Positions 4,246 to 20,218 of a stretch of 20,359 bases of DNA are shown here, in pieces. The notes under the pieces were generated by a model, which had not been told where the DNA came from, did not search any database, and saw only the letters and a program-made list of their open reading frames with translations. This stretch comes from an uncultured virus (IMG/VR IMGVR_UViG_3300031555_006012). Taxonomy: Duplodnaviria > Heunggongvirae > Uroviricota > Caudoviricetes. How positions within the stretch are numbered: position 1 is the first letter of the stretch; every line of letters begins with the position of its first letter. The stretch lies in the IMG/VR virus record IMGVR_UViG_3300031555_006012; one strand, written 5' to 3'. The position numbers and the translations under genes are program-made.

Positions 4246-4324
4246 GGCTTTCGTCCTTTCTGAAGGGGTGGTATTGTGTTGCCCTTCACTGTTAGGCCAC
4301 GGGAGAGGCCGTTTGGGGGGGTCC

Positions 4325-4702
4325 TCAAAAATATTTTTTCAAATTTTTAATTGCGGAATTGAGAGACTCCCGAACGGTGGAATGATCGAGACCCAACTCT
4401 CTGGCGATTTCACGGATCCCCATGTTCTCGAAAAAGTGGAGCTGGATAATCTGCCGCTGGCGGTCAGGGAGCTTCTTAATAGCATCACGCAGGGCGAGAA
4501 TGTCGGCATAAGTGGAGAGGTCTGCACTGTCATCGGCAAAATAGTCGCCTTCATAGCACATGGCGCTCAGAGAAGCGTGGCGGCGGGTTTCTGTGTGGTT
4601 GTTGTTGTATTCCTGACGGTCAAGGTCGATGACCAGGTTGCCCCAGTCCTCATCAACTTCGATTTCCACGATTTCGTCGATGAATTTGTACTGAATTTTC
4701 AT
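4325..4702 (-). CDS. Sigma-70 region 4 (ECF-like) HTH protein
   Basis: Start at ATG 4702 (MKIQYKF, AAAGGA RBS). C-terminal LPDRQRQIIQLHFFENMGIREIARELGLDHSTVRESL is a sigma region 4 HTH. Confidence 0.85.
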   Translation of the reverse strand: MKIQYKFIDEIVEIEVDEDWGNLVIDLDRQEYNNNHTETRRHASLSAMCYEGDYFADDSADLSTYADILALRDAIKKLPDRQRQIIQLHFFENMGIREIARELGLDHSTVRESLNSAIKNLKKYF

Positions 4703-4752
4703 AATTTCTGTTCCTTTCTTCGTGGGAAGCGAAGCGAGGAACAGAAAAAAGG

Positions 4753-4813
4753 CAAAAAAAATACCGCCGAGGTAAAGTAAAATCATTTCTGATCTTCACT
4801 TCACTTCGGCGGT
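4753..4813 (-). terminator. Long-stem intrinsic terminator (unit C)
   Basis: ACCGCCGA...TCGGCGGT stem extended by G-U pairs that only pair on the minus strand, GAAA loop, then ATTTTTTTT. Confidence 0.75.
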
Positions 4814-4819
4814 TTAGGT

Positions 4820-4856
4820 GACTCGGATGGTTACGGTCCCAGGGCTCGATAATGAA
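4820..4856 (-). promoter_or_regulatory. Two-hairpin CGAG RNA motif, copy C
   Basis: TTC-attatc-GAG, then GACCG-taaccatc-CGAGTC just upstream of the terminator. Same architecture at 5311-5350 and 6143-6175. Confidence 0.5.
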
Positions 4857-4905
4857 TCTATCTATATAAAGCTGAGGGCAGAGGGGCTACGATGCCCCCT
4901 TGGAA

Positions 4906-5103
4906 TCAGCGTTTTTTGTTTTTAGCGGCAGCAGCGATCTGCTCGGCTTCACGCTGGCCTTCTTCAATCTGCGCCCGGACTGCGTCAAGGGTAATGACAA
5001 GCCGCTGGCGGGCGATCTTCAGTTCGAGGGCAATGCTGCCATCGGGGTTGTATACTGCGTCAAACAGGCGGTTGCCTGCATCATCACGAATAGGTTTGTG
5101 CAT
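4906..5103 (-). CDS. Small hypothetical protein (paralog C of the small-protein array)
   Basis: 65 aa, GGAGG RBS. Shares the xDG-x-[VI]-x-L-xx-K and [IM]xL helix pattern with the ORFs at 5408-5608 and 6228-6395. Confidence 0.75.
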   Translation of the reverse strand: MHKPIRDDAGNRLFDAVYNPDGSIALELKIARQRLVITLDAVRAQIEEGQREAEQIAAAAKNKKR

Positions 5104-5131
5104 ATGAGTTTTCCTCCAATCATATTAAATA

Positions 5132-5170
5132 TTAGTTTCGGTAATGGTAACGGTGCTTTCTCGGATTCAC
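5132..5170 (-). CDS. Putative 12-aa leader peptide MNPRKHRYHYRN
   Basis: AAGGAGG SD 5 nt before GTG at 5170; TAA at 5134-5132. Confidence 0.35.
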   Translation of the reverse strand: MNPRKHRYHYRN

Positions 5171-5249
5171 AAGAACCTCCTTGTTCGGCGCGAAGGCCTA
5201 TCGGGGTGGGTGGGCGACTTATATTTTTGCGGTGAGAATTACAGGAAGC

Positions 5250-5314
5250 AAACAAAAAAGCCGCCACAGCCGGTCTGGAGAGGGTGTGGGCCTCTTCAGA
5301 CGACCGTGGCGGCT
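5250..5314 (-). terminator. Long-stem intrinsic terminator (unit B)
   Basis: AGCCGCCACGGTCGTCTG...CAGACCGGCTGTGGCGGCT followed by TTTTTGTTT. Confidence 0.85.
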
Positions 5315-5350
5315 CGGCTCTGTTTATCGGCCTAGCTCACTCGCGGAGTG
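5311..5350 (-). promoter_or_regulatory. Two-hairpin CGAG RNA motif, copy B (overlaps terminator stem)
   Basis: CACTC-cgc-GAGTG, then GGCCG-ataaacagagc-CGAGCC. Its last 4 nt (AGCC) are shared with the terminator 5' arm. Confidence 0.55.
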
Positions 5351-5407
5351 GATGGATTTATTCTTTTGGTAGAAACTGGCGATCGCCTCGGTATGTCGGG
5401 CAATCTG

Positions 5408-5608
5408 TCAGGCGGCGGATTCGGACTCTTCAAGCGCCGCAAGGACACGGCGAACAAATTCGAAAAGCTCGATTTCCTCAAAGAGAGGACTACGTGCTTT
5501 TTTGATGCAAAGCATTACACGGGTTCCATCAGCGGAGCGGTACACTTCTGCGAAGGGAATGTTTTCCTTCGGGGTGTGGACAAGGACCCGGCGAGGTGTG
5601 ACTTTCAT
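5408..5608 (-). CDS. Small hypothetical protein (paralog B of the small-protein array)
   Basis: 66 aa, AAGGAGG RBS. LVHTPKENIPFAEVYRSADG aligns with LVHTPDKNITVAEVFRDEDG of the ORF at 6228-6395. Confidence 0.85.
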   Translation of the reverse strand: MKVTPRRVLVHTPKENIPFAEVYRSADGTRVMLCIKKARSPLFEEIELFEFVRRVLAALEESESAA

Positions 5609-5649
5609 AACGGTTTCCTCCTTGAATTCGATTTTTAGGCCCTCAGGGC

Positions 5650-5696
5650 AAAAAAAATAGCGCCGAAAGGGTCGATTGGGAACCCCGTCGTCGCTT
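5650..5696 (-). terminator. Imperfect leader terminator (unit D)
   Basis: AGCG-A-CGA-CG-GGGT...ACCC-TT-TCG-G-CGCT stem followed by ATTTTTTTT. The 3' part is nearly identical to the unit C terminator. Confidence 0.55.
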
Positions 5697-5862
5697 TCAA
5701 GAGAGTCGTGGAAAGGCGATACTACGCCTTATGGCTCGGATGAAAGAGGCACGGAGAGATTGCGAGAAATAGAAATTTTAAGGTTGCAGGTATTTTTGAA
5801 CACGGCACACACTCCAATCTTCAGCCTCATTCATAAAAATTGCGGAGGCTTATCTAGTAAAT

Positions 5863-5891
5863 ACTATAGCAGACTTTTGTGCAATGGTCAA
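5863..5891 (-). promoter_or_regulatory. SigmaA promoter for the early/replication operon
   Basis: TTGACC-17 bp-TATAGT with extended TG. A TTGTGCAA pseudo-palindrome lies in the spacer. Confidence 0.7.
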
Positions 5892-5984
5892 TCCTAAAAT
5901 TCTACCTATTTCACTACTCAAAACTTGTGCAAGTAGCTGATTTTTGTTGAAAAACACAAAAAGTTCTTGCGTTTGAAAGAGTTC

Positions 5985-5993
5985 TGTTATAAT
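5985..5993 (+). promoter_or_regulatory. Divergent extended -10 promoter
   Basis: TGTTATAAT (TGnTATAAT) in an AT-rich region. No convincing plus-strand CDS downstream. Confidence 0.45.
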
Positions 5994-6074
5994 ATAAGCA
6001 AGCTGCCTTTTAGTGGCTTGCGCAAAATGAACGCTTTTCGCGGGGGAAGCCCCCAAAAAAATCGCATTATGCTT

Positions 6075-6143
6075 AATAAAACAGACTGCCGCCATGGCCC
6101 ACTTCTTCCGGCGTTTCCGGGAAGAGAGGACTCATGGCGGCAG
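6075..6143 (-). terminator. Long-stem intrinsic terminator (unit A)
   Basis: CTGCCGCCATG...CATGGCGGCAG (11 perfect bp plus an inner stem) followed by TCTGTTTTATT. Confidence 0.75.
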
Positions 6144-6175
6144 AACTCGTTTCAACGGTTCGGCTCGTTATGAGC
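6143..6175 (-). promoter_or_regulatory. Two-hairpin CGAG RNA motif, copy A
   Basis: GCTC-ataac-GAGC, then GAACCG-ttgaaa-CGAGTTC directly abutting the terminator. Confidence 0.55.
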
Positions 6176-6227
6176 TGTGTTGGATATGTAGGAACCTGCG
6201 ACGGTCACCTCACGATCGGGTGGCCTG

Positions 6228-6395
6228 TTACGCGGGGGTTCCTGCTGCCTGGTAGACCAGGTCAAGGAATTGTGCCAAGGACATGGATTCGTACACATTG
6301 GCTCCGGGCTTTTTCCAGCGGAGGGAAACGGCCCCGTCTTCATCGCGGAAGACTTCAGCTACGGTGATGTTTTTGTCTGGGGTATGGACCAGCAT
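6228..6395 (-). CDS. Small hypothetical protein, 55 aa (paralog A; not in the ORF track)
   Basis: AAAGGAGG RBS, ATG 6395, TAA 6230-6228. Sequence MLVHTPDKNITVAEVFRDEDGAVSLRWKKPGANVYESMSLAQFLDLVYQAAGTPA is clearly similar to ORF 5408-5608. Confidence 0.85.
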   Translation of the reverse strand: MLVHTPDKNITVAEVFRDEDGAVSLRWKKPGANVYESMSLAQFLDLVYQAAGTPA

Positions 6396-6422
6396 ATGGT
6401 ATCCTCCTTTGCATCTGGTTTA

Positions 6423-7205
6423 TTAGAACGGGAGTTCGTCGATGTTCATATAGCTATCGATGGCGGACCGTACATTTGCGGTAAGAATAGGATGCTTGCT
6501 GGAATCTGCCGCTGCGGCATAGAGGTCGGCCAGCGGCTGGTTGTAGGGGCTTTCCTCTTCCCAGGTGGAGTGACACACAATGGACACATTCCAGCGGCGA
6601 TCCACCATATACAGCTCATATTCATATTCCGCATCATTCCCTTTGTCGTCCATTTCGGTGGGGACAATGACTTTCATCAGGTAAAGGAACTGATCGCCGA
6701 AGGGGAGAATGTAGCCATCGTCGCAGACACTGACGCTCTCCTCTTCTCTGAACAGAGAGCAGTATCCGACGAAGGACTGCTCTTCAGGATAGCCGCCCAT
6801 ACCCGGTACGAGCTTGCTTTGCCAAGAGAAAAGCGGATGATTGGGATTCCCGTTGTCGTCAGCTCGGACACGCTTCAGCTTGGCATAGGTTTCCCGCTGC
6901 CAGATCTCGATGTTGTCAGAGGTCTTTTCGATCAGCTTAGAGATAAAATCGACCATGTATTTTTCGCCCGGGGTAAGGACTTCAAAATCGTGGTGGAGCA
7001 AGGCGTCAAGCGAGACCCCCAGCATATCAGCGACAGCTACCAGCATTTCGATGCTGGGAGATGTTTTGGTGTCGGCCTTATTCAGCCTGGAAATATAGCC
7101 AGCACTCACACCTGCTGCGTTTTCCAGATCGCCTATTTTGACATTCTTTTTCTTAGCCAGGTAATAAATATTGGAAAGGCACAGCCTTTTGTTGAACTCT
7201 TTCAT
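6423..7205 (-). CDS. XRE-family HTH regulator with a large unassigned C-terminal domain (candidate repressor)
   Basis: Start ATG 7205 (AAGGAGG RBS). KIGDLENAAGVSAGYISRL...PSIEMLVAVADMLGVSLDALL is an HTH_XRE. 260 aa. Confidence 0.85.
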   Translation of the reverse strand: MKEFNKRLCLSNIYYLAKKKNVKIGDLENAAGVSAGYISRLNKADTKTSPSIEMLVAVADMLGVSLDALLHHDFEVLTPGEKYMVDFISKLIEKTSDNIEIWQRETYAKLKRVRADDNGNPNHPLFSWQSKLVPGMGGYPEEQSFVGYCSLFREEESVSVCDDGYILPFGDQFLYLMKVIVPTEMDDKGNDAEYEYELYMVDRRWNVSIVCHSTWEEESPYNQPLADLYAAAADSSKHPILTANVRSAIDSYMNIDELPF

Positions 7206-7229
7206 GGGGAATCCCTCCTTTGTGACAAT

Positions 7230-7258
7230 ATGGTACACCATTTTGAATAAAATGTCAA
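7230..7258 (-). promoter_or_regulatory. SigmaA promoter of the XRE gene
   Basis: TTGACA-17 bp-TACCAT. Palindromes ATGGT-AC-ACCAT (7230-7241) and TGTAAATTTACA (7268-7279) overlap or flank it. Confidence 0.65.
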
Positions 7259-7356
7259 TAAGAAAAATGTAAATTTACAAATGGTTCAAAGAAGCAAGTC
7301 GAAATTGAAGGATTTTTCTATTTTGGTGTCGGAACTGGTCGAAAGTTCAAAATTCT

Positions 7357-8415
7357 TCAACTGAACTGGGACAACCATTCTAGGAACTGTTCCGTTGATT
7401 TCGTGCCTTGGGCGAGTTCTTGCCGCCATTCTTTTATGCCAGAAGTGAGGTCGGAGAACCTATCCCACGCTTCCTTATTGCCGGGATGGCGTTGCGTTTT
7501 CATTTTGTACCGCATGTAGGTCTTTCGGTATTCACGCGTGACAATGTCGGATTTTTCCTTATTGGCTCTTGCCGCCTGGGCTCCGACCTCGCGACAGGTC
7601 TTGGATTTGTTTTGAGGTGACGGATATCCACAATACACTGTATCACTGCGTCCGTCTGGCACAAAGATGTACTCGCAATTCGGGCATTTTTTAAAGTTAG
7701 CTTCGTGGTTGATGCTATTGGCCATTTCAAACAGAAGCAAGGAAATGGAGGACTTCAGTGTGTACATGGATTCAAACCCAGACTCTGTTACGACAATTCG
7801 GAAGTCGATATGCTGCATCTGCATGAAGGTGCTGTAGAACTGGCCGAAGTTTGACAGGATATTTTCTCGGGTTTCATTTTCCTCGCCGTAATAGCCGACG
7901 ATCTGATAGAACACCAGCTTGACGGTAGAGTAGACATCGGCGAAATGCAGATACGCAGACAGCATCAGCTGAAGGTTTGTCTCTCTGCCGACTTCGGAAT
8001 AAGGTGTATCTTTGAAAATATACTCCTTTACAGCATCCGGCTCATCTCTCTGGAACATAGCAACATATTCATTTTCATCGCCCTGTCGGATTGCCTGGAA
8101 CCACTCCGAGACTGTTGTCATGAATTCTACCAGGACCATTATGGCTATGACAGGGTCATACCTAGCAAACAGCTTTTCTTGGAAAGCCATCATGGTCTCC
8201 AGAAGAGTGTCAGGCGTTGCTTCGTCATCCAGTCCGGGGCAGTCAAGGATAACCTCTTTAAGTTCTGTAGGTGCAAGGCGGCAATACTCGCAGATAAGGC
8301 CTCCAACGGGATATTCCTTCAAAATCCCATCACCTACAAGGGTGTAGCTTTTGTTGTTGTTATAAAAGACAGACAGACCGTAGTCCATCATGGGCAGATC
8401 ATCTTGTGTTATCAA
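7357..8415 (-). CDS. DUF6076-like protein with C-terminal Cys (zinc-finger-like) motif
   Basis: 352 aa, TTG start with AAAGGAG RBS. KKCPNCEYIF...YC...KTCREVGA followed by a basic helical tail. Confidence 0.75.
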   Translation of the reverse strand: MITQDDLPMMDYGLSVFYNNNKSYTLVGDGILKEYPVGGLICEYCRLAPTELKEVILDCPGLDDEATPDTLLETMMAFQEKLFARYDPVIAIMVLVEFMTTVSEWFQAIRQGDENEYVAMFQRDEPDAVKEYIFKDTPYSEVGRETNLQLMLSAYLHFADVYSTVKLVFYQIVGYYGEENETRENILSNFGQFYSTFMQMQHIDFRIVVTESGFESMYTLKSSISLLLFEMANSINHEANFKKCPNCEYIFVPDGRSDTVYCGYPSPQNKSKTCREVGAQAARANKEKSDIVTREYRKTYMRYKMKTQRHPGNKEAWDRFSDLTSGIKEWRQELAQGTKSTEQFLEWLSQFS

Positions 8416-8482
8416 TTTATATTCTCCTTTCCTAAGCGCAAACTGTTAACATTGGTTACGGACACAATCGATTGATAACACG

Positions 8483-8511
8483 ATTATATGTGTAAAGCTG
8501 TAACTATGCAA
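8483..8511 (-). promoter_or_regulatory. SigmaA promoter flanked by ATTGATAACA repeats
   Basis: TTGCAT-17 bp-TATAAT. ATCGATTGATAACA at 8467-8480 and 8530-8543; inverted partial copy at 8407-8416. Confidence 0.65.
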
Positions 8512-8552
8512 CAAGGGAATAAGAAAATTATCGATTGATAACAGATGGAGGG

Positions 8553-9794
8553 CTATTGGTACATTAGACCGGGCATTTTGACTTGGTGCCGCCCATCGTC
8601 TGGCATTTTCAGGTCCCCGAGCAGCGAGCCGTAGGTCAGCGCATGTTTTCCGAACCGACCACGAAGTTCCTCAACAGTGTCCTGCAAGCGCTCTCGGCGA
8701 TCCATTTTCTGCGCATCAACGAAAAGTGAGAGCTGATCAGGTGAATTTTGGGGAACCAGGTCAATGGCCCTTACTGTGACAGCTCTGACCTTACTTCCCC
8801 AATGATACTTAGACTGAAAAATGCGGGAGGCGGCTCCGGCAATTTCAGAGGGAAGCTGTGTGGCAAACGGTAGCTTACACTGGAACTGAGATCCAAGGAG
8901 GTCGTTGCCACGGACGGCCACCTGAACGCCCCGAGCAGAAAGTTCATGGATACGCAGGCGATGTCCTATGTCTTGGCTGAGAGCCAGGATGACTTTGTGT
9001 ACTTCCTCCTCATCGACCAGATCGGCAACACAGGTGATTCCATGGCCGACGCTCTTTACCGGGGATACGAAATCCTTGTGCATAACCCGGGAGGTGTCGG
9101 TTCCATTGGCATAGCGCCACAGAGCAAGGCCGTTCACTCCGAACCATCTCTTGAGCAGTGCCGGGTCAGTGGCAGCAAGTTCTCCAATCGTGTGAATGCC
9201 GTATTTTGCCAGCTTCGCAGTGGTTGCTCGGCCACAATAAATCATTTCACTTGCATCCAAGGGCCAGACCTTCTCCATAAAATCCTCCCGACGAATCTGT
9301 GTGATCGCGTCGGGCTTTTTCATGTCTGAGCCCAGCTTCGCGAAAATTTTGTTGAAGGACACACCGATGCTTACGGTCAAGCCAAGCTCGTCACGCACAG
9401 AAGAGCGGATATTCTCTGCGATGGTCATGGCATCCCCATAAATGCCCTGGCTCCCGGTAACATCCATCCAGCACTCATCCATTCCGAAAGGCTCGACCTG
9501 GTCGGTGTAGCGGTGGTAGATGGACTGCGTCAGTTTGGAGTATTTCAGGTACTGGTCGTACTGGGGTGGTACGACGATCAGATTCTTGCACAATTGCCGT
9601 GCTTCCCAATTCACCATCCCCGTTTTAACGCCAGCCTTTTTAGCGAGGTCCGATTTGGCAAGCACGATGCCGTGCCGATCCTCAGTAGATCCGCACACAG
9701 CAACAGCCTTTCCCTTGAGGGACGGATCGAGCATCATCTCGACCGAGGCATAGAAGGAATTCAAATCACTGTGTAAAATTGCTCTATCTTCCAA
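8553..9794 (-). CDS. dinB: Y-family DNA polymerase (Pol IV/DinB-like)
   Basis: 413 aa. ILHSDLNSFYASVE, AKKAGVKTGM, GMDECWMD, SIGVSFNKIFAKLGSDMKKPD motifs. TTG start with GAGGTG RBS. Confidence 0.93.
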   Translation of the reverse strand: MEDRAILHSDLNSFYASVEMMLDPSLKGKAVAVCGSTEDRHGIVLAKSDLAKKAGVKTGMVNWEARQLCKNLIVVPPQYDQYLKYSKLTQSIYHRYTDQVEPFGMDECWMDVTGSQGIYGDAMTIAENIRSSVRDELGLTVSIGVSFNKIFAKLGSDMKKPDAITQIRREDFMEKVWPLDASEMIYCGRATTAKLAKYGIHTIGELAATDPALLKRWFGVNGLALWRYANGTDTSRVMHKDFVSPVKSVGHGITCVADLVDEEEVHKVILALSQDIGHRLRIHELSARGVQVAVRGNDLLGSQFQCKLPFATQLPSEIAGAASRIFQSKYHWGSKVRAVTVRAIDLVPQNSPDQLSLFVDAQKMDRRERLQDTVEELRGRFGKHALTYGSLLGDLKMPDDGRHQVKMPGLMYQ

Positions 9795-14052: not shown

Positions 14053-15216
14053 GTGCCAAATGACAGCTTAAGCAATGCAAAAAATAAGAAAAATGATGAG
14101 TTTTACACCGTTTACGATTATATTCAAAGGGAAATGAATGCTTACTTGGAGTACGACCCCGATGTTTTTAGGGGGAAAACAGTGCTTCTGCCATGTGATG
14201 ATCCTGAGTGGAGCAACTTTACAAGATTTTTTGCTCAAAATTTTGAAACCCTGGGATTGAAAAAGCTGATTTCTACTAGCTATGCTGTGGACAGTAAAAA
14301 GGCCAAGTATGGTTTTGAAGATCGAGATGGTTACCAGCAACTCACGATTTTTGAAATGATGTCGCCGCAGTATGATGAGACAATCACAATGTCTCGCGGA
14401 AAGATCTATACTCTGACAAGAGACATGAATCGGTCCGGCGTGGTAGATATCGAGGATCTTCAATGGCACTATTTGGAGGGGGACGGTGACTTCAGAAGCG
14501 ACGAGGTCAAGGCGCTTCGCGATGAAGCCGATATTATTGTTACAAATCCTCCATTTTCTCTTTTCAGAGAGTTTGTTGCCTGGGTAATGGAAGCTGGAAA
14601 AAGCCTTGTGATTATTGGTAGCCAAAATGCTATTACATACAAAGAGATTTTCCCCCTTTTGAAGGAAAACAAACTGTGGATTGGTGCTACAAATAACGGC
14701 AAAGATATGGTTTTCGAAGTGCCGGAAGGTGCCGAAGTGGCACCCAAAGACCGAGAGAAGGCAGCCAAGCTGGGGTATGTTGGAAACTACACTCGCCTGG
14801 GCAATGCCTGCTGGTTTACTAACATTAATCATGGAAGACGCCATCAGCCAATGAGCTTAATGACGAAAGCCGATAACGAAAAGTACAGCAAGCATAAACA
14901 AATTCGTGAAGCAGGTTATCAAAAGTACGACAACTACGATGCCATAGAAGTTCCTTTTACTGACGCTATCCCTTCCGACTACGATGGGGTAATGGGTGTC
15001 CCTATTACTTTTATGGACAAGTACTGCCCTGAGCAATTTGAAATCATCTGGCAGGCAAGTGGAAACGCCTATGCCAATGCTCCTAGTGGCGTGATGGAAA
15101 TGCTCAAGTTCGACCCAACTGTAAAGTACGGTGGGGGCCTTGGTGCAGCAGTAGTTGGGGGAAAAGCAGTATACTCTCGTATTCTCATCAAGAGGAAGGT
15201 CGTGAAGTCCGAATGA
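14053..15216 (+). CDS. Adenine-specific DNA methyltransferase, EcoRI family
   Basis: 387 aa. KNDEFYT, PCDDPEWSNF, GDGDFRS, catalytic IIVTNPPFSLFR, KYDNYDAIEV and GVMGVPITF motifs. Confidence 0.92.
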   Translation: MPNDSLSNAKNKKNDEFYTVYDYIQREMNAYLEYDPDVFRGKTVLLPCDDPEWSNFTRFFAQNFETLGLKKLISTSYAVDSKKAKYGFEDRDGYQQLTIFEMMSPQYDETITMSRGKIYTLTRDMNRSGVVDIEDLQWHYLEGDGDFRSDEVKALRDEADIIVTNPPFSLFREFVAWVMEAGKSLVIIGSQNAITYKEIFPLLKENKLWIGATNNGKDMVFEVPEGAEVAPKDREKAAKLGYVGNYTRLGNACWFTNINHGRRHQPMSLMTKADNEKYSKHKQIREAGYQKYDNYDAIEVPFTDAIPSDYDGVMGVPITFMDKYCPEQFEIIWQASGNAYANAPSGVMEMLKFDPTVKYGGGLGAAVVGGKAVYSRILIKRKVVKSE

Positions 15217-16388
15217 AAACCACACTGCTAATTGACTTGACAATTGACGAAATCTGCAAAGGGTTTGTCTATAATGAGCTTGAGGGCAAGGGCTTGTTTG
15301 GGTGGTCTGGTAAGTTGGTTATTCAGCCGGAGTACCAGCGTAACTATTTGTACGCCGAACAAAAGATGGAAGAGGCCGTTATCAGGTCGGTACTCAATGG
15401 TTATCCTTTGGGCCTACTGTATTTCAACAAAGTTGGTGAAAACCAATACGAGGTTTTGGATGGGCAACAGCGTATAACTAGCCTGGGACGGTTTATGACT
15501 GGAAAATTCCCTTTGCTTGATCATGAGGGAATGCCTCATTATTTTGATGCTTTACCAGCAGATATGAAAAAGACGATTCGTGAAAGCAAGCTCACGATTT
15601 ATATTTGTGAGGGAGAAGAATCCGAAATCAAAGCCTGGTTCAAAACAATTAACATCGCAGGCATTCCACTCAATCGTCAGGAGATTTCTAACGCGGTCTA
15701 CTCAGGTCCGTTTGTAACGAAAGCTAAAGAAGTTTTCAGTAATAGCGGTAATTCAAGCGTTCAGAAATGGGCGCATTACATTAAAGGCACTGTTAGCAGG
15801 CAGGATTTCCTCCGCGTTGCTCTCGAATGGGTAGCTCGGAGTAATGACCATGATGATGTAGATGCCTATATGAGCAAACACCGTTTTGACACAAATATCA
15901 CAGAACTGGAAAACTATTTCAATAGTGTGATTGATTGGATAGACGGCGTGTTTTCAGATGTGGAGTCTGAGATGCGCGGTTTGGAATGGGGGCATCTGTA
16001 TGAGGCCTACCACAACAACCCATATGACCCTGCGGCGGTTTCTGCGAAGGTTCACGAGTTGTACGCTGATGCTGCTGTGAAAAAGCGGGCAGGTGTGTTC
16101 GAGTACATCTTGGGCGGATGTACAGATACGCGACTGCTTGAGATTCGAGTATTTGAGGAATCTACTAAGAAGGCCGTTTACACTCAGCAGACCGATAAGG
16201 CTAGAAGAGAGCAGCGGTCAAACTGCCCTCTTTGCGCTCTTGGAACTGACAACAATGCCCGACGCATTTGGAAGTATTCTGAAATGGATGCCGACCATGT
16301 AACGGCATGGAGTAAAGGCGGCGCAACCGATATCAGCAATTGCCAGATGCTGTGCAAAACTCATAACCGCGCGAAAGGCAACAAGTAA
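15213..16388 (+). CDS. DUF262 (GmrS/ParB-like) plus HNH endonuclease
   Basis: 391 aa. QPEYQRNY and DGQQR (DUF262); CPLC...DADHVTAWSKGGATDISNCQMLCKTHN (HNH). ATGA overlap with the MTase. Confidence 0.92.
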   Translation: MKTTLLIDLTIDEICKGFVYNELEGKGLFGWSGKLVIQPEYQRNYLYAEQKMEEAVIRSVLNGYPLGLLYFNKVGENQYEVLDGQQRITSLGRFMTGKFPLLDHEGMPHYFDALPADMKKTIRESKLTIYICEGEESEIKAWFKTINIAGIPLNRQEISNAVYSGPFVTKAKEVFSNSGNSSVQKWAHYIKGTVSRQDFLRVALEWVARSNDHDDVDAYMSKHRFDTNITELENYFNSVIDWIDGVFSDVESEMRGLEWGHLYEAYHNNPYDPAAVSAKVHELYADAAVKKRAGVFEYILGGCTDTRLLEIRVFEESTKKAVYTQQTDKARREQRSNCPLCALGTDNNARRIWKYSEMDADHVTAWSKGGATDISNCQMLCKTHNRAKGNK

Positions 16389-17195: not shown

Positions 17196-17519
17196 TTAGC
17201 ATTTTACTTCTTCGCTTGCCCGAACCACCGATACGAGCATATCCCGTTCCCGTTTCGGCAGTTTCAAAATTGCCGCTGCCAAACTGCTGGCAGCACCTAC
17301 ATCTGAGTGGGTGACTACATCCTGGAGGAGGACATCCGAGGAAACCGCCAGGGTGTTTGCTATTTTTACGAAGGTCTCCAACTTGGGCGGCTTGACTCCA
17401 CGCTCCAACACACTGATATGTGTGGGGCTCATGCCAAGCTCGGCAGCAAGTTCTTCCTGTGTGTAGCCCGCCCGTTCTCTGGCGGCACGGATCCGCTTGC
17501 CAACTGCTGTCCAATCCAT
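17196..17519 (-). CDS. XRE-family HTH transcriptional regulator
   Basis: Start ATG 17519 (GGAGGGAGG RBS). GKRIRAARERAGYTQEELAAELGMSPTHISVLERG. Confidence 0.92.
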   Translation of the reverse strand: MDWTAVGKRIRAARERAGYTQEELAAELGMSPTHISVLERGVKPPKLETFVKIANTLAVSSDVLLQDVVTHSDVGAASSLAAAILKLPKRERDMLVSVVRASEEVKC

Positions 17520-17657
17520 AGTTTTCCCTCCCTCCAGAACCAGAACTAGTTCTGAAATAATTATAAATGGAAACATGGAGGAACGACAGGTTCTGGAATG
17601 CTTTGGCCTTGTTCTATTGGAACGAGAATTGATAATGGAAATATGAATTGCTCGACG

Positions 17658-17827
17658 CCCGGGGAACGATTTCACGATTACCAACGGTTTCACGATTACT
17701 CGACGATTTCACGATTACTCCCTAACGATTTCACGATTACCCCAACGATTTCACGAATACCCCGACGGTTTCACGATTACCCCAACGATTTCACGAATAC
17801 CCTTAACGATTTCACGATTACCCGGGG
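17658..17827. repeat. Tandem array of 8 x 16-bp ACGRTTTCACGAWTAC flanked by CCCGGGG direct repeats
   Basis: Cores start at 17666, 17684, 17703, 17725, 17745, 17765, 17785 and 17806 (period 18-22). CCCGGGG at 17658-17664 and 17821-17827. Confidence 0.95.
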
Positions 17828-17945: not shown

Positions 17946-17997
17946 AAAAAGAAAATCTCCCTTTGCAACCATTGTATCAATGATTGCAAAGGGAGAT
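17946..17997 (-). terminator. Terminator hairpin immediately after the tRNA CCA
   Basis: ATCTCCCTTTGCAA...TTGCAAAGGGAGAT stem followed by TTTCTTTTTT on the minus strand. Confidence 0.85.
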
Positions 17998-18072
17998 GGT
18001 CCGAGTGGGGAGATTCGAACTCCCGGCATCTTGAACCCAAATCAAGCGCCCTACCAACTGGGCCACACCCGG
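17997..18072 (-). tRNA. tRNA-Pro(TGG)
   Basis: 76-nt cloverleaf: CCGGGTG/CACTCGG acceptor, anticodon arm CTTGA-TT TGG GT-TCAAG, GGGAG-TTCGAAT-CTCCC T-arm, encoded CCA. Confidence 0.97.
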
Positions 18073-19027: not shown

Positions 19028-20125
19028 TTAAACGTTGAACAGGAAGTTTACGATGTCGCCGTCCTTCATAATGTATTCCTTACCTTCACTGCGGACCAGA
19101 CCCTTTGCCTTGGCGGCAGCCATGGTACCGCAGGTCTTCATATCCTCAAAGGCAATGACCTCGGCACGGATAAAGCCACGCTCAAAGTCAGTGTGAATCT
19201 TGCCGGCAGCCTGGGGCGCCTTGGTGCCACGCTTGATGGTCCAGGCACGGCATTCGTCGCTGCCTGCGGTCAGGAAGGAAATCAGGCCCAGCAGGGCATA
19301 GCTGGACTTGATGAGCCGGTCCAGACCGGATTCGGCAACACCCAGCTCTTCCATGAACATGGCCTTCTCTTCGGGATCGTCCAGCTCGGCAATGTCGGCC
19401 TCCAGCTTGGCGCAGATGGGCAGGCACTGACTGCCTTCCTCAGCGGCCAGCTCCTTGACGGCTACGAAGTGACGGTTGCTTTCGGGCTCGTTGATCTCGT
19501 TTTCTGCCAGGTTGGCGACGTAAATGGTCTTCTTCAGGGTCAGCAGGTCGGACTGGGCGATCAGAGCAAAATCTTCAGCGTCATCGGTGAAGGTGCGGGC
19601 CAGTTTGCCCTCGTTCAGGTGGGCCAGCAGCTCGGTCAGCAGAGCGGCTTCCTTTGCAAACCGCTTGTCGCCGCCCTTCATGGCCTTCTGAGCCTTGTCA
19701 ATGCGGCGCTCCACCATTTCGATGTCAGCCATCACCAGCTCCAGATTGATGATGTCGATGTCCCGCAGGGGATCGGTGGTGCCTTCCACATGGGTGACAT
19801 TGGAGTCCTCAAAGCATCTCACCACATGAACAATGGCATCGGTGGTGCGGATGTTGCTCAGGAACTTGTTGCCCAGGCCTTCGCCCTTGGATGCGCCTTT
19901 CACCAGACCGGCGATGTCCACGAATTCCACCACGGCGGGGGTGAACTTCTTGGGCTTATGAACTTCTGCCAGCCAGTCCAGCCGCTCATCGGGCACGGAA
20001 ACCACGCCCACATTGGGATCGATGGTACAGAAGGCATAGTTATCAGCAGGGACACCTGCATTGGTGATTGCATTGAAGAGGGTGGACTTGCCGACATTGG
20101 GCAGTCCCACGATACCTAGTTTCAT
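19028..20125 (-). CDS. ychF: Ribosome-binding ATPase YchF
   Basis: Start ATG 20125 (AAGGAG RBS). [57 protein letters not shown]; 365 aa. Confidence 0.97.
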
Positions 20126-20178
20126 ATATTTCAAAACTCCTTTATTTGCAACGGTTTTTTGGATTCTAAAATGATTTC

Positions 20179-20218
20179 CGCACCAATTCCGCACCAATTT
20201 TCCATCAGCGCACCAATT
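20179..20218. repeat. Three CGCACCAATT direct repeats (integrase arm-type sites)
   Basis: Copies at 20179-20188, 20190-20199 and 20209-20218, directly after the integrase stop. Confidence 0.8.

What the first reader, a model, noticed from the sequence alone, without database searches (positions are those of the whole stretch)
4741..6400. Candidate new system: serial 'small protein + cognate structured RNA + terminator' cassettes gating the phage replication operon
Seen: three related 55-66 aa ORFs (6395-6228, 5608-5408, 5103-4906). Each is followed by the same two-hairpin CGAG RNA motif and a long CCGCC/GGCGG terminator. Transcription from the promoter at 5863-5891 must pass three terminators (about 5650-5696, 5250-5314, 4753-4813) before reaching the sigma-like, DUF2800, SSB and polymerase genes. 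A further unit sits behind the XRE gene. Inference: the small proteins bind the adjacent motif and control read-through, like lambda N/nut or ANTAR dual-hairpin logic but with an unrelated protein family. Diverged copies could give cascade timing or element-specific immunity. An alternative is a protein/sRNA toxin-antitoxin-like repeat.
Basis: partly seen in the sequence, partly recalled or inferred. Interest (0 to 1): 0.85.

Follow-up and report, generated by a model that had tools for sequence, protein, structure and literature searches.

The report
Small protein, RNA hairpins, terminator cassettes
In a gut-bacterial prophage, genes for a new family of tiny proteins are each followed by the same folded RNA element and a very strong transcription stop signal, placed just before the phage's replication genes, which looks like a new self-contained switch for letting transcription through.

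Summary
The observation largely holds. ORF1 (6228-6395) and ORF2 (5408-5608) belong to a real, unnamed family of about 60-aa proteins, here called A2. A profile search found 53 clusters, and the AlphaFold model has four strands and one helix at pLDDT 91. No Pfam, PHROG, NCBIfam or PADLOC family matches.

Each A2 gene is followed by a conserved RNA of up to three short hairpins (P0, P1, P2) rich in CGAG. This RNA runs straight into a long intrinsic terminator (-30 to -42 kcal/mol).

A covariance model of P1-P2 gave strong matches (42 bits or more) only directly after A2 genes. These were 2 in the window, 3 in 80 related genome loci, 3 in viral contigs and 9 in metagenome contigs. Matches elsewhere scored 33.5 bits or less and looked like chance. 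Stem P2 shows compensatory changes in 4 of 4 pairs.

ORF3 (4906-5103) is only doubtfully related, and its RNA is not matched by the model. It does occupy the same position in a relative.

In several loci the next gene starts 14-60 nt after the terminator, leaving no room for a promoter, so these terminators must be read through.

Best reading (about 0.45): an autogenous RNA-binding regulator of read-through, with HutP-like logic but an unrelated protein and RNA. Binding and direction are untested, and no RNA data were available.

The parts
6228..6395 (-). ORF1, 55 aa, A2-family small protein. It is the last gene of the upstream regulatory operon, directly after the 272-aa HTH gene at 6423-7241.
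   Evidence: (A2 HMM E 5.5e-24)
6203..6225 (-). Hairpin P0 of cassette 1. It starts 2 nt after the stop codon, and its loop ends in GAGG.
   Evidence: fold; compared with 8 other P0 segments
6128..6175 (-). Hairpins P1 and P2 plus the start of the terminator's 5' arm, cassette 1 (R1 match, 53.1 bits).
6075..6143 (-). Terminator T1: long hairpin 6086-6143, then a weak U-tract.
   Evidence: I2; -39.8 kcal/mol, z -6.2
5863..5891 (-). Promoter-like site: TTGACC, 17 nt, TG-extended TATAGT. An 8-nt word in its spacer (5877-5884) is repeated at 5924-5931.
   Evidence: 10 of 12; consensus match only; the repeat was read
5649..5695 (-). Leader terminator: hairpin 5659-5695 plus a U8 tract. There is no R1 motif before it.
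   Evidence: -17.1 kcal/mol, z -1.1; D7: its tail is 95% identical to T3's tail
5408..5608 (-). ORF2, 66 aa, A2-family small protein.
   Evidence: E 4.5e-23; AlphaFold pLDDT 91.4
5381..5405 (-). Hairpin P0 of cassette 2.
   Evidence: -12.3 kcal/mol
5300..5348 (-). Hairpins P1 and P2 plus the start of the terminator's 5' arm, cassette 2 (R1 match, 41.9 bits). The P2 stem is GGC/GCC here, where other copies have AAC/GUU.
5249..5314 (-). Terminator T2: hairpin 5259-5314 plus a U6 tract.
   Evidence: I14; -41.9 kcal/mol, z -6.6
4906..5103 (-). ORF3, 65 aa, family A3. It is only doubtfully related to A2.
4814..4905 (-). 3' region of ORF3: a GC hairpin after the stop codon and two CGAG words. It is closely similar to L027 but is not matched by R1.
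4752..4813 (-). Terminator T3: hairpin 4763-4813 plus a U8 tract. It lies 50-60 nt before the sigma-like start codon.
   Evidence: I5; -30.0 kcal/mol, z -7.0
4696..4756 (-). Hairpin that pairs the ribosome-binding site of the sigma-like gene.
   Evidence: I1; -22.2 kcal/mol, z -4.4; the same hairpin in L027
4325..4702 (-). Sigma-70 region-4-like gene, 125 aa, the first gene after the cassettes. It is followed by phrog_7234, phrog_408, DUF2800, an Enc34-type SSB and a family-A polymerase.

Best explanation
The region holds repeated copies of one conserved module with three parts. The first is a gene for a roughly 60-aa protein with four strands and one helix (family A2). The second is a 3' RNA of up to three short hairpins (P0, P1, P2), each presenting a CGAG or GAG word. 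The third is an unusually long intrinsic terminator whose 5' arm follows directly after P2 and, in most relatives, carries a further CGAG word.

The module sits between the element's regulatory operon (HTH, M78-peptidase-like, DinB/DUF6076 genes) and its sigma-like and replication genes. All of these are transcribed in the same direction.

Most likely mechanism (inferred, not shown): the A2 protein, probably as a dimer or higher oligomer, binds the GAG words of the RNA made just after its own gene. It thereby changes whether the adjoining terminator hairpin forms. In the more likely direction, the protein holds the 5' arm single-stranded and allows read-through. Transcription then reaches the sigma-like and replication genes only once the protein has accumulated.

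In this window three terminator cassettes (leader, ORF2, ORF3) lie in series after the promoter-like site at 5891-5863. A fourth closes the upstream operon.
For: Shown, the protein family:
- A2 is a real family. The profile search found 53 clusters at E <= 1e-3, some of them tandem doubles of 109-126 aa.
- The AlphaFold model has pLDDT 91.4.

Shown, linkage of RNA and protein:
- All 7 A2 ORFs found independently of the RNA are followed by hairpins and a long terminator. These are the window's 2 and the 5 in L079 (two), L055, L040 and L056.
- R1 matched 6 of these 7 at E < 1e-3.
- Over 894,369 bases (window, 80 DUF2800 loci, 5 viral loci), R1 matches at E < 1e-3 lie only after A2 ORFs. The one exception is L090 at 26 bits, which was fetched by the pattern itself.
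- Of 118 metagenome pattern matches, 9 score 47 bits or more. All 9 follow an A2 ORF; L169's ORF is cut by the contig end.
- The other 109 metagenome matches score 33.5 bits or less or are unlisted, and have no A2 ORF.
- In 150 further genomes of the order, R1 gave only 4 weak matches (21-23 bits), all inside long ORFs.

Shown, RNA structure and conservation:
- P2 has 4 of 4 pairs with changes on both sides and 90% of cells paired. 0 of 500 shuffles reach the covariation score.
- P0 folds as a hairpin with different stem sequences in 7 of 9 copies.
- The RNA is more conserved than its ORF at nucleotide level: 65% against 44% mean identity, in 53 of 55 pairs.

Shown, architecture:
- The next gene's ribosome-binding site starts about 14 nt after the terminator in L055 and L056.
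- The sigma-like start codon lies 50-60 nt after T3 in the window and L027. No promoter-like match lies between them in the window.
- The synteny is conserved across relatives.

Inferred:
- Binding of the protein to the RNA.
- The direction of the effect.
- Oligomerisation, suggested by the tandem-double forms.
Against: - There is no expression or binding data. The two RNA runs laid gave 0 reads.
- Fold similarity to nucleic-acid binders (PUR repeat, PC4/Sub1, YdbC) is weak, with Z 3.2-4.4 and a best Z of 4.7. That is below what the tool calls meaningful. Foldseek found nothing at E <= 0.001.
- The RNA sample is small (13 distinct rows).
- Five of the RNA copies were fetched with a pattern that demands the motif.
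- Alignment A7 is fitted to the model, which favours the structure.
- P1 hardly varies, so it neither supports nor contradicts the fold.
- Two A2 paralogues have only a reduced motif. L079 840-1031 has no R1 match. L089 1050-1220 scores 16 bits, E 0.011-0.11.
- ORF1's terminator is followed by a promoter-like site. In L079 a TTGACA...TAGAAT-type site follows the terminator (read). Some of these terminators may therefore simply end an operon.
- The window's own T1 and T2 lack the CGAGCA word that relatives carry in the 5' arm.
- The leader terminator, and the terminators after the second small ORFs of L055 and L056, have no R1 motif. A2 acting at its own site would not explain their passage.
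Confidence: 0.45

Rival explanations
1. The terminators are plain, strong insulators, and the protein does something else. They separate the regulatory operon from co-directional lytic genes. The conserved 3' hairpins stabilise or process the mRNA 3' end, or give a 3'-UTR-derived small RNA. A2 has another job, for example a single-strand nucleic-acid binder for replication or recombination, or a partner of the neighbouring HTH regulator.
For: - Promoter-like sites follow T1 in the window and the L079 terminators (read).
- The weak fold matches are to ssDNA or RNA binders such as PC4, and a phage T5 PC4-like protein is among them.
- A2 is always the last gene of the upstream operon.
Against: - The gene upstream of A2 varies (HTH_3, HTH_17, DinB, unnamed), while the RNA downstream is constant.
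- The RNA abuts the terminator and is more conserved than the ORF.
- In L055, L056, L027 and at the window's T3, the next gene follows the terminator without room for a promoter. These are internal attenuators, not operon ends.
Confidence: 0.25
2. The same protein-RNA pair works in the opposite direction. A2 binding stabilises P0-P2 or the terminator and enforces termination, as PyrR and TRAP do. The regulatory operon would then never run on into replication genes while A2 is being made.
For: - A2 is co-transcribed with repressor-type genes (HTH, M78 peptidase).
- The linkage of protein, RNA and terminator is the same evidence as for the best explanation.
Against: - Hairpins of -30 to -42 kcal/mol with U-tracts should terminate well without help.
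- ORF2 and ORF3 lie downstream of the early promoter-like site, not in the repressor operon.
Confidence: 0.15
3. P0-P1-P2 with the terminator is a protein-independent sensor RNA, riboswitch-like, that responds to a small ligand or ion. A2 merely travels with it.
For: - The arrangement of conserved hairpins followed by a terminator resembles an aptamer with an expression platform.
Against: - The hairpins are modular. Some copies lack P0 (L055, L157). L040 has another hairpin where P1 lies and scores only 26 bits, and L089 1050-1220 keeps only P0- and P2-like parts.
- That modularity fits repeated binding sites better than one compact fold.
- There is no Rfam match.
- The RNA is strictly linked with one protein family.
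Confidence: 0.07
4. A protein-RNA toxin-antitoxin-like pair.
For: - A small protein lies next to a structured RNA with repeated words.
Against: - The order is protein, then RNA, then terminator. As I recall, type III systems run RNA repeats, then terminator, then a toxin of about 170 aa.
- There is no PADLOC or Pfam toxin match.
- The RNA is not a tandem array.
Confidence: 0.03

Closest known systems
HutP and the hutP-hutH terminator of Bacillus subtilis
   Same: - The regulator is encoded first in the operon.
- Its RNA target lies in and just before the intercistronic terminator.
- The target is made of several NAG words in two clusters.
- Binding destabilises the terminator hairpin.
(PMC2425495, abstract; PMC12591593, section 25 read.)
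Here GAG words occur in P0, P1 and P2 and, in most relatives, in the terminator's 5' arm.
   Different: - HutP is a ligand-activated hexamer whose monomer has six helices and four strands (PMC12591593, section 25). A2 is about 60 aa with four strands and one helix.
- No member of alignment A2 listed a HutP family in the Pfam scan at E <= 1.
- The GAG words here sit in hairpins spaced 10-35 nt apart, not in triplet clusters.
- No ligand is known.
- The context is a prophage, with cassettes in series.
PyrR attenuation of the pyr operon (recalled, not looked up here)
   Same: - The regulator gene comes first.
- Several attenuators in series carry the same binding hairpin before a terminator.
   Different: - PyrR promotes termination through an anti-antiterminator and senses UMP.
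- The protein and RNA are unrelated to those here.
- I saw no alternative antiterminator pairing here beyond 4 bp (by eye).
Lambda N/nut and other processive antitermination (recalled)
   Same: - A phage early transcript must pass several terminators before replication genes.
- A small phage protein and an RNA site are involved.
   Different: - The nut site lies upstream of the N gene, and N modifies the polymerase with host Nus factors.
- Here the RNA lies after the gene and abuts one particular terminator.
- Whether action is processive is unknown.
ANTAR dual-hexaloop antiterminators
   Same: - Two short hairpins just before or overlapping a terminator are bound by a protein (PMC8934654, abstract).
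   Different: - There is no ANTAR domain.
- The loops are 5-11 nt, not paired hexaloops.
- There are up to three hairpins.
- The protein is encoded in cis, immediately upstream.
PUR repeat and PC4/Sub1/YdbC-type single-strand nucleic-acid binders
   Same: - They share the topology of four strands followed by one helix.
- The family has tandem-double forms, as expected if two repeats pair.
- They are among the top structural rows: PURA repeat III Z 4.4 (rmsd 5.5, 63 aligned), PC4 Z 3.9, Sub1 Z 3.9, Borrelia Pur-alpha Z 3.7, YdbC Z 3.3, T5 PC4-like Z 3.2.
   Different: - All Z values are below 5 with rmsd of 4-5.5 A, which may be only a common arrangement.
- There is no sequence match.

Membership tests
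HutP-type antiterminator | Protein belongs to the HutP family | tested here: not met
   Pfam scan of 31 A2 members at E <= 1 listed only five unrelated families, one member each. The predicted fold is four strands and one helix in about 60 aa.
HutP-type antiterminator | Regulator gene is followed by an intercistronic terminator carrying repeated NAG words | tested here: met
   GAG occurs 44 times against 16.3 expected; CGAG 26 against 4.7.
HutP-type antiterminator | Protein binds that RNA and prevents termination | not testable with these tools
   Needs EMSA and in vitro transcription. The RNA runs gave 0 reads.
ANTAR antiterminator | ANTAR domain protein | tested here: not met
ANTAR antiterminator | Two hairpins with hexaloops overlapping the terminator | tested here: not met
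   The P1 and P2 loops are 5-11 nt, and there are up to three hairpins.
PUR / PC4-like ssDNA/RNA-binding fold | Structural match over the whole domain that stands clear of background | tested here: inconclusive
   Z is 3.2-4.4 for seven PUR, PC4, Sub1, YdbC or T5 PC4-like entries among the top 22 rows; the best row overall is Z 4.7. Foldseek found none at E <= 0.001.
Known Rfam RNA family | Match at or near a family's gathering score | tested here: not met
   Window at gathering threshold: tRNA only. Region 4300-8600 at E <= 10: three chance-level rows. Five related loci: none.
Type III toxin-antitoxin | Tandem RNA repeats, then a terminator, then a toxin gene | tested here: not met
   The order here is protein, RNA, terminator. 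There is no tandem array and no PADLOC match. The definition of the family is recalled.
A2 small-protein family (defined here) | ORF3 is a member | tested here: inconclusive
   No BLASTP match. hhalign probability 23%, E 9e-4. The model has strands and then a long helix, pLDDT 77. The A3-like ORF holds the same position in L027.

The most novel reading that the evidence does not exclude
A2 is a new family of minimal (about 60 aa) RNA-binding antiterminators. Each protein acts on a CGAG-hairpin RNA encoded immediately after its own gene. Prophages string several such self-contained cassettes, with different small proteins, in series. The result is a transcriptional delay line, or an element-specific lock, between the immunity operon and the replication genes.
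Probability: 0.3. Interest if true: 0.8.

Novelty: new variant of a known kind. Interest (0 to 1): 0.62.

Why it matters
If the protein controls its own downstream terminator, this would be a new and very small protein-RNA switch of the HutP/PyrR type. It would be built from an unrelated protein fold and an unrelated RNA. It sits at the junction that decides whether a gut-Clostridia prophage expresses its replication genes.

Being compact (about 350 nt) and self-contained, it would be easy to test and could serve as a regulatory part. The serial arrangement would give a concrete model for timing by successive terminators in Gram-positive phages.

Even if the mechanism is wrong, two things stand. 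One is a covariation-supported RNA motif absent from Rfam. The other is an unnamed protein family strictly linked to it.

Tried and rejected
Family and similarity searches:
- Rfam gave nothing relevant: window at gathering threshold, 4300-8600 at E <= 10, and five related loci.
- Pfam, PHROGs, NCBIfam and PADLOC gave no family for ORF1-3 or the A2 members.
- The PDB sequence search had a best E of 0.13.
- Foldseek against PDB found nothing at E <= 0.001.
- The ESM Atlas gave no usable feature hit.
- blastn of 4300-7300 against phage records found 1 record covering 3%.

Searches for more loci:
- Protein-based locus searches found no relatives for A1 in viral and genome contigs, the sigma-like protein in viral contigs, A3 in viral contigs or the tandem-double forms A9 in viral contigs.
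- A2 was too diverse for the locus tool.
- A2 in 401 genomes of the order of G001 matched only the seed genome.
- No whole genome is held for the window.

Other checks:
- Earlier findings of this scan: nothing.
- Literature: 'DUF2800' with 'RNA motif' gave 0 papers. The 15 of 18 'DUF2800' papers listed, judged by title and abstract start, do not concern this module. The listing showed nothing matching.
- Expression: no RNA holder was listed. RNA runs X21 and X22 gave 0 reads laid, so this is no test.

Ideas dropped:
- I thought by eye that the second small ORF of L056 (4722-4877) resembled ORF3. hhalign rejects this against both A3 and A2 (probability 0.2% and 0.5%).
- The ORF3 model against PDB gave nothing clear, with a best Z of 3.3.
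- I looked by eye for an RNA-only antiterminator. P1's 5' arm can pair with the GAGC word in the terminator arm, but only over 4 bp. That is too weak against a stem of about 20 bp.
- The MAFFT alignment of P0 (A8) put the 3' arms out of register, so I did not count pairs on it. I folded each copy separately instead.
Full report
**Setting**

The window joins chromosome to an integrated phage-like element whose genes lie on the - strand.
- Chromosomal features are a YchF GTPase gene at 19028-20197 and tRNA-Pro at 17997-18072.
- From right to left the element holds an HTH gene (17196-17693), a restriction-modification pair (14053-16388) and a DinB/ImpB-type polymerase (8553-9794).
- Next come a DUF6076 protein (7357-8415) and a 272-aa HTH protein (6423-7241), followed by the region in question.
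- After that region lie a sigma-70 region-4-like gene (4325-4702), two small PHROG families, DUF2800, an Enc34-type SSB and a family-A DNA polymerase.
- No whole genome is held for the window.

**The observation**

- ORF1 and ORF2 are homologous: 43% identity, E 7e-12.
- ORF3 has no BLASTP match to either.

Four hairpins followed by U-tracts lie on the coding strand.

| Terminator | Hairpin | Energy (kcal/mol) | z-score | Tail |
|---|---|---|---|---|
| T1 | 6086-6143 | -39.8 | -6.2 | weak U-tract |
| Leader | 5659-5695 | -17.1 | -1.1 | U8 |
| T2 | 5259-5314 | -41.9 | -6.6 | U6 |
| T3 | 4763-4813 | -30.0 | -7.0 | U8 |

The leader hairpin is not exceptional in itself.

The promoter at 5891-5863 is a good consensus match: 10 of 12, TG-extended. 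The region as a whole has no more such matches than its shuffles (7 against 5.5 +/- 2.4). No other promoter-like match lies on the - strand between 5863 and the sigma-like gene.

**The protein family**

- Word-based search found only 5 close relatives of ORF2 and 13 rows for ORF3, the window's own protein among them.
- A profile of ORF1, ORF2 and close relatives, run against 1.84 billion representatives, found 53 proteins at E <= 1e-3.
- Most of these are 53-87 aa. Several are 109-126 aa with two matched stretches, that is, tandem doubles.
- An alignment of 31 members (A2) shows conserved T-P, I, G, K and E positions (K36, usually followed by a second K).
- None of Pfam, PHROGs, NCBIfam or PADLOC names the family.
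- AlphaFold on A2 gives a confident model (pLDDT 91.4) of four strands and a C-terminal helix.
- Foldseek finds nothing at E <= 0.001.
- The exhaustive structural search gives only weak rows, with a best Z of 4.7. Seven of the top 22 are strand-strand-strand-strand-helix binders of single-stranded nucleic acid: PURA repeat III (Z 4.4), PC4 and Sub1 (3.9), Borrelia and Drosophila Pur-alpha (3.7), YdbC (3.3) and a phage T5 PC4-like protein (3.2).
- By the tool's own note these Z values can reflect a common arrangement only, so this is a lead and not a classification.
- The tandem-double forms suggest that two copies work together. The homodimer prediction could not be run.

**ORF3**

- Its family (A3, 13 sequences) aligns to A2 in the expected register, but with a probability of only 23% (E 9e-4).
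- Its model has strands followed by a long helix at pLDDT 77, with no clear structural neighbour.
- In relative L027, an A3-like ORF (E 7.8e-6) sits exactly where A2 genes sit in other elements. It is the last gene of the upstream operon, followed by a near-identical RNA and terminator and then the sigma-like gene.
- I treat membership of ORF3 in A2 as open.

**The RNA**

I fetched 80 loci around relatives of the DUF2800 protein. I then searched their six-frame ORFs with the A2 profile.
- There were five hits in four loci: L079 (two), L055, L040 and L056.
- Every one, like ORF1 and ORF2, is followed by short hairpins and a long GC-rich terminator.
- Reading these side by side shows a modular RNA.

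| Module | Description |
|---|---|
| P0 | A hairpin starting at or just after the stop codon. The stem varies; the loop begins with CC and ends with GAGG. |
| P1 | GCUC, a loop, then GAGC. |
| P2 | A 3-4 bp stem closing a loop that begins CGA and ends GA. |
| Terminator | Follows P2 directly. In most relatives its 5' arm carries CGAGCA, paired through G-U wobbles (read). |

- Not all copies have all modules. L055 and L157 lack P0. L040 has another hairpin in place of P1 and scores only 26 bits. L089 1050-1220 keeps only P0- and P2-like parts.
- An unbiased k-mer count over 12 copies puts CGAG first (26 seen, 4.7 expected), followed by GAGC and CCGA.

**Linkage of RNA and protein**

- Of the 124 places, 12 have an A2 ORF ending within 200 nt upstream on the same strand.

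I built covariance model R1 from 10 copies (48 positions, 8 pairs).
- Over the window, the 80 DUF2800 loci and 5 viral loci (894,369 bases), matches at E < 1e-3 were as follows.
  - The eight seed copies searched there, at 42-63 bits.
  - L040 at 26 bits, after its A2 ORF and not a seed.
  - L090 at 26 bits, a pattern-fetched place with no A2 ORF and no terminator.
- L089 1050-1220 scored 16 bits. L079 840-1031, ORF3 and L027 were not matched.
- On the 118 metagenome loci the scores are bimodal: 9 loci at 47-65.5 bits, and the rest at 33.5 bits or less or unlisted.
- All 9 high scorers follow an A2 ORF. For L169 the ORF is cut by the contig end, but its last 30 residues are those of the L157 protein.
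- In 150 further genomes of the same order, R1 gave four matches of 21-23 bits, all inside ORFs of 184-824 aa and without terminators.
- The A2 profile found no other carrier among 400 genomes of that order.
- The RNA and the protein are therefore both rare, and they were found together.

The reverse direction is less clean. Of 7 A2 ORFs found without reference to the RNA, 6 have an R1 match at E < 1e-3. The seventh (L079 840-1031) keeps only P0 and a terminator.

**Structure support**

- On the model-fitted alignment of 14 matches (13 distinct), P2 has changes on both sides in 4 of 4 pairs, with 90% of cells paired.
- The whole structure pairs in 84.6% of cells, against 19-46% when partners are slid by 1-3 columns.
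- 0 of 500 shuffles reach the covariation score.
- P1 varies on one side only, so it says little.
- P0 folds as the expected hairpin in 7 of 9 copies, with different stem sequences. MAFFT could not put its 3' arms in register, so I give no pair counts for it.
- The P1-P2 stretch is more conserved than the adjoining ORF at nucleotide level: mean 65% against 44%, higher in 53 of 55 pairs.

Caveats:
- Five copies were fetched by a pattern that demands the motif.
- The sample is small.
- The alignment leans towards the model.

**Architecture**

In all loci examined, the A2 gene is the last gene of an operon of regulatory or repair-type genes: an HTH protein, an M78 IrrE-like peptidase, DinB/ImpB or DUF6076. 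The sigma-like gene and the DUF2800-SSB-polymerase module follow in the same direction. The upstream neighbour varies; the downstream RNA does not.
- In L055, L056 and L129, a ribosome-binding site and start codon follow the terminator's U-tract by about 14 nt.
- That second small ORF (69 or 52 aa) is unrelated to A2 and A3 by hhalign.
- It is followed in turn by another long terminator before the sigma-like gene.
- In the window and L027 the sigma-like start codon lies 50-60 nt after T3. That space is filled by a hairpin that pairs the ribosome-binding site (-22.2 kcal/mol, z -4.4).
- These terminators therefore stand inside transcription units, and downstream genes can be expressed only by read-through.
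- Serial 'small ORF plus long terminator' units ahead of the sigma-like gene are thus a recurrent design, not an oddity of this window.

Against a pure gating picture, T1 is followed by the promoter-like site. In L079, a TTGACA...TAGAAT-type site follows the terminator (read).

**Natural variation**

Contigs of two DNA runs show relatives that keep three blocks: 4973-5183, 5255-5355 (T2 with P1-P2) and 6120-6308 (T1's 5' arm, P2, P1, P0 and the end of ORF1).
- Between these blocks lie 74 and 719 other letters (record 12).
- Summed contig depth over 4670-4817 is several times that of the flanks in one run.
- This suggests that the terminator blocks are shared among different elements and that cassettes are exchanged as units.
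- Contigs cannot show more than that. The two RNA runs gave no reads.

**Mechanism**

What is shown is a conserved, co-inherited trio of protein gene, structured RNA with repeated GAG words, and a strong terminator, placed where read-through is needed.

What I infer is that the protein binds the RNA made just after its own gene and alters terminator formation.
- I favour antitermination for three reasons. The motif runs into the 5' arm of the terminator. In most relatives that arm carries a further CGAG word, held by G-U pairs. Hairpins this strong need no help to terminate.
- The modular gain and loss of hairpins fits repeated binding sites for an oligomer better than a single compact aptamer.
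- The opposite direction (enforced termination), a 3'-UTR stability or small-RNA role, and a protein-independent sensor all remain possible.
- A2 acting only at its own site would not explain passage of the leader terminator, or of the second terminators in L055 and L056, which lack the motif. Either each small protein serves its own terminator, or the action is processive. Nothing here decides between these.

**Comparison with known systems**

The nearest known logic is HutP. The regulator gene comes first, its target is clusters of NAG words in and before the intercistronic terminator, and binding opens the hairpin (PMC2425495, abstract; PMC12591593, section 25 read).
- A2 is not a HutP, ANTAR or CAT protein.
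- The RNA is not in Rfam.
- Comparisons with PyrR, TRAP, lambda N/nut and type III toxin-antitoxin systems rest on recall.
- My searches found no paper on this module. They cover open-access text only.

**Verdict**

Its regulatory reading is plausible but untested. I rate it a new variant of a known kind (protein-controlled intrinsic termination), built from a new protein family and a new RNA motif. Interest 0.62.

Noticed in passing
window 4696-4756 (-): A hairpin pairs the ribosome-binding site of the sigma-like gene with an upstream stretch (-22.2 kcal/mol, z -4.4). The same hairpin, with changed but still pairing stem bases, is seen in L027 just before its sigma-like gene (read). This suggests translational control on top of the terminators.
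   Followed up: partly
L055 4629-4838 and L056 4722-4880, with hairpins at about L055 4868-4925 and L056 4920-4990: A second small ORF (69 and 52 aa) starts about 14 nt after the A2 terminator and is itself followed by another long terminator before the sigma-like gene. These proteins match neither A2 nor A3.
   Followed up: partly
window 5877-5884 and 5924-5931 (-): The same 8-nt word occurs in the spacer of the promoter-like site and again about 47 nt upstream (read). It could be an operator for one of the HTH proteins.
   Followed up: no
window about 5997-6023 (-); L087, L089 and L040 downstream of their terminators: A short element of the form AGCC...AAGGCAG, able to form a small hairpin, recurs some tens of bases after the cassette terminator in several loci (read). 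It is not analysed further.
   Followed up: no
window 8406-8543: A 14-nt word is repeated exactly at 8467-8480 and 8530-8543 and is inverted at 8406-8427, just upstream of the DUF6076 gene start at 8415 (D20, I3, I4). This looks like an operator.
   Followed up: no
window 7357-9794 (-); L027, L055, L137: A DinB/ImpB-type polymerase gene, in the window and L027 followed by a DUF6076 gene, lies upstream of the cassette in several of these elements.
   Followed up: partly
window 14053-16388 (+): An EcoRI-type adenine methylase gene and a GmrSD_N plus HNH gene lie inside the element on the opposite strand. The second gene matches the PADLOC type II restriction enzyme model at E 3.7e-90.
   Followed up: no
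window 17997-18072 (-): tRNA-Pro (TGG) lies between the chromosomal YchF side and the element's first HTH gene. It is a likely integration site. No integrase gene was identified among the window ORFs scanned.
   Followed up: no
proteins P0024, P0031, P0049, P0069: Four long proteins (320-4753 aa) match short parts of the A2 profile 5-12 times each. These are probably unrelated repeats. I did not look at them.
   Followed up: no
window 4670-4817: In one metagenome run, summed contig depth over T3, the ribosome-binding-site hairpin and the start of the sigma-like gene is 5-8 times that of the flanks. Several different contigs cover it. This block seems to be shared by several elements in that sample.
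   Followed up: no
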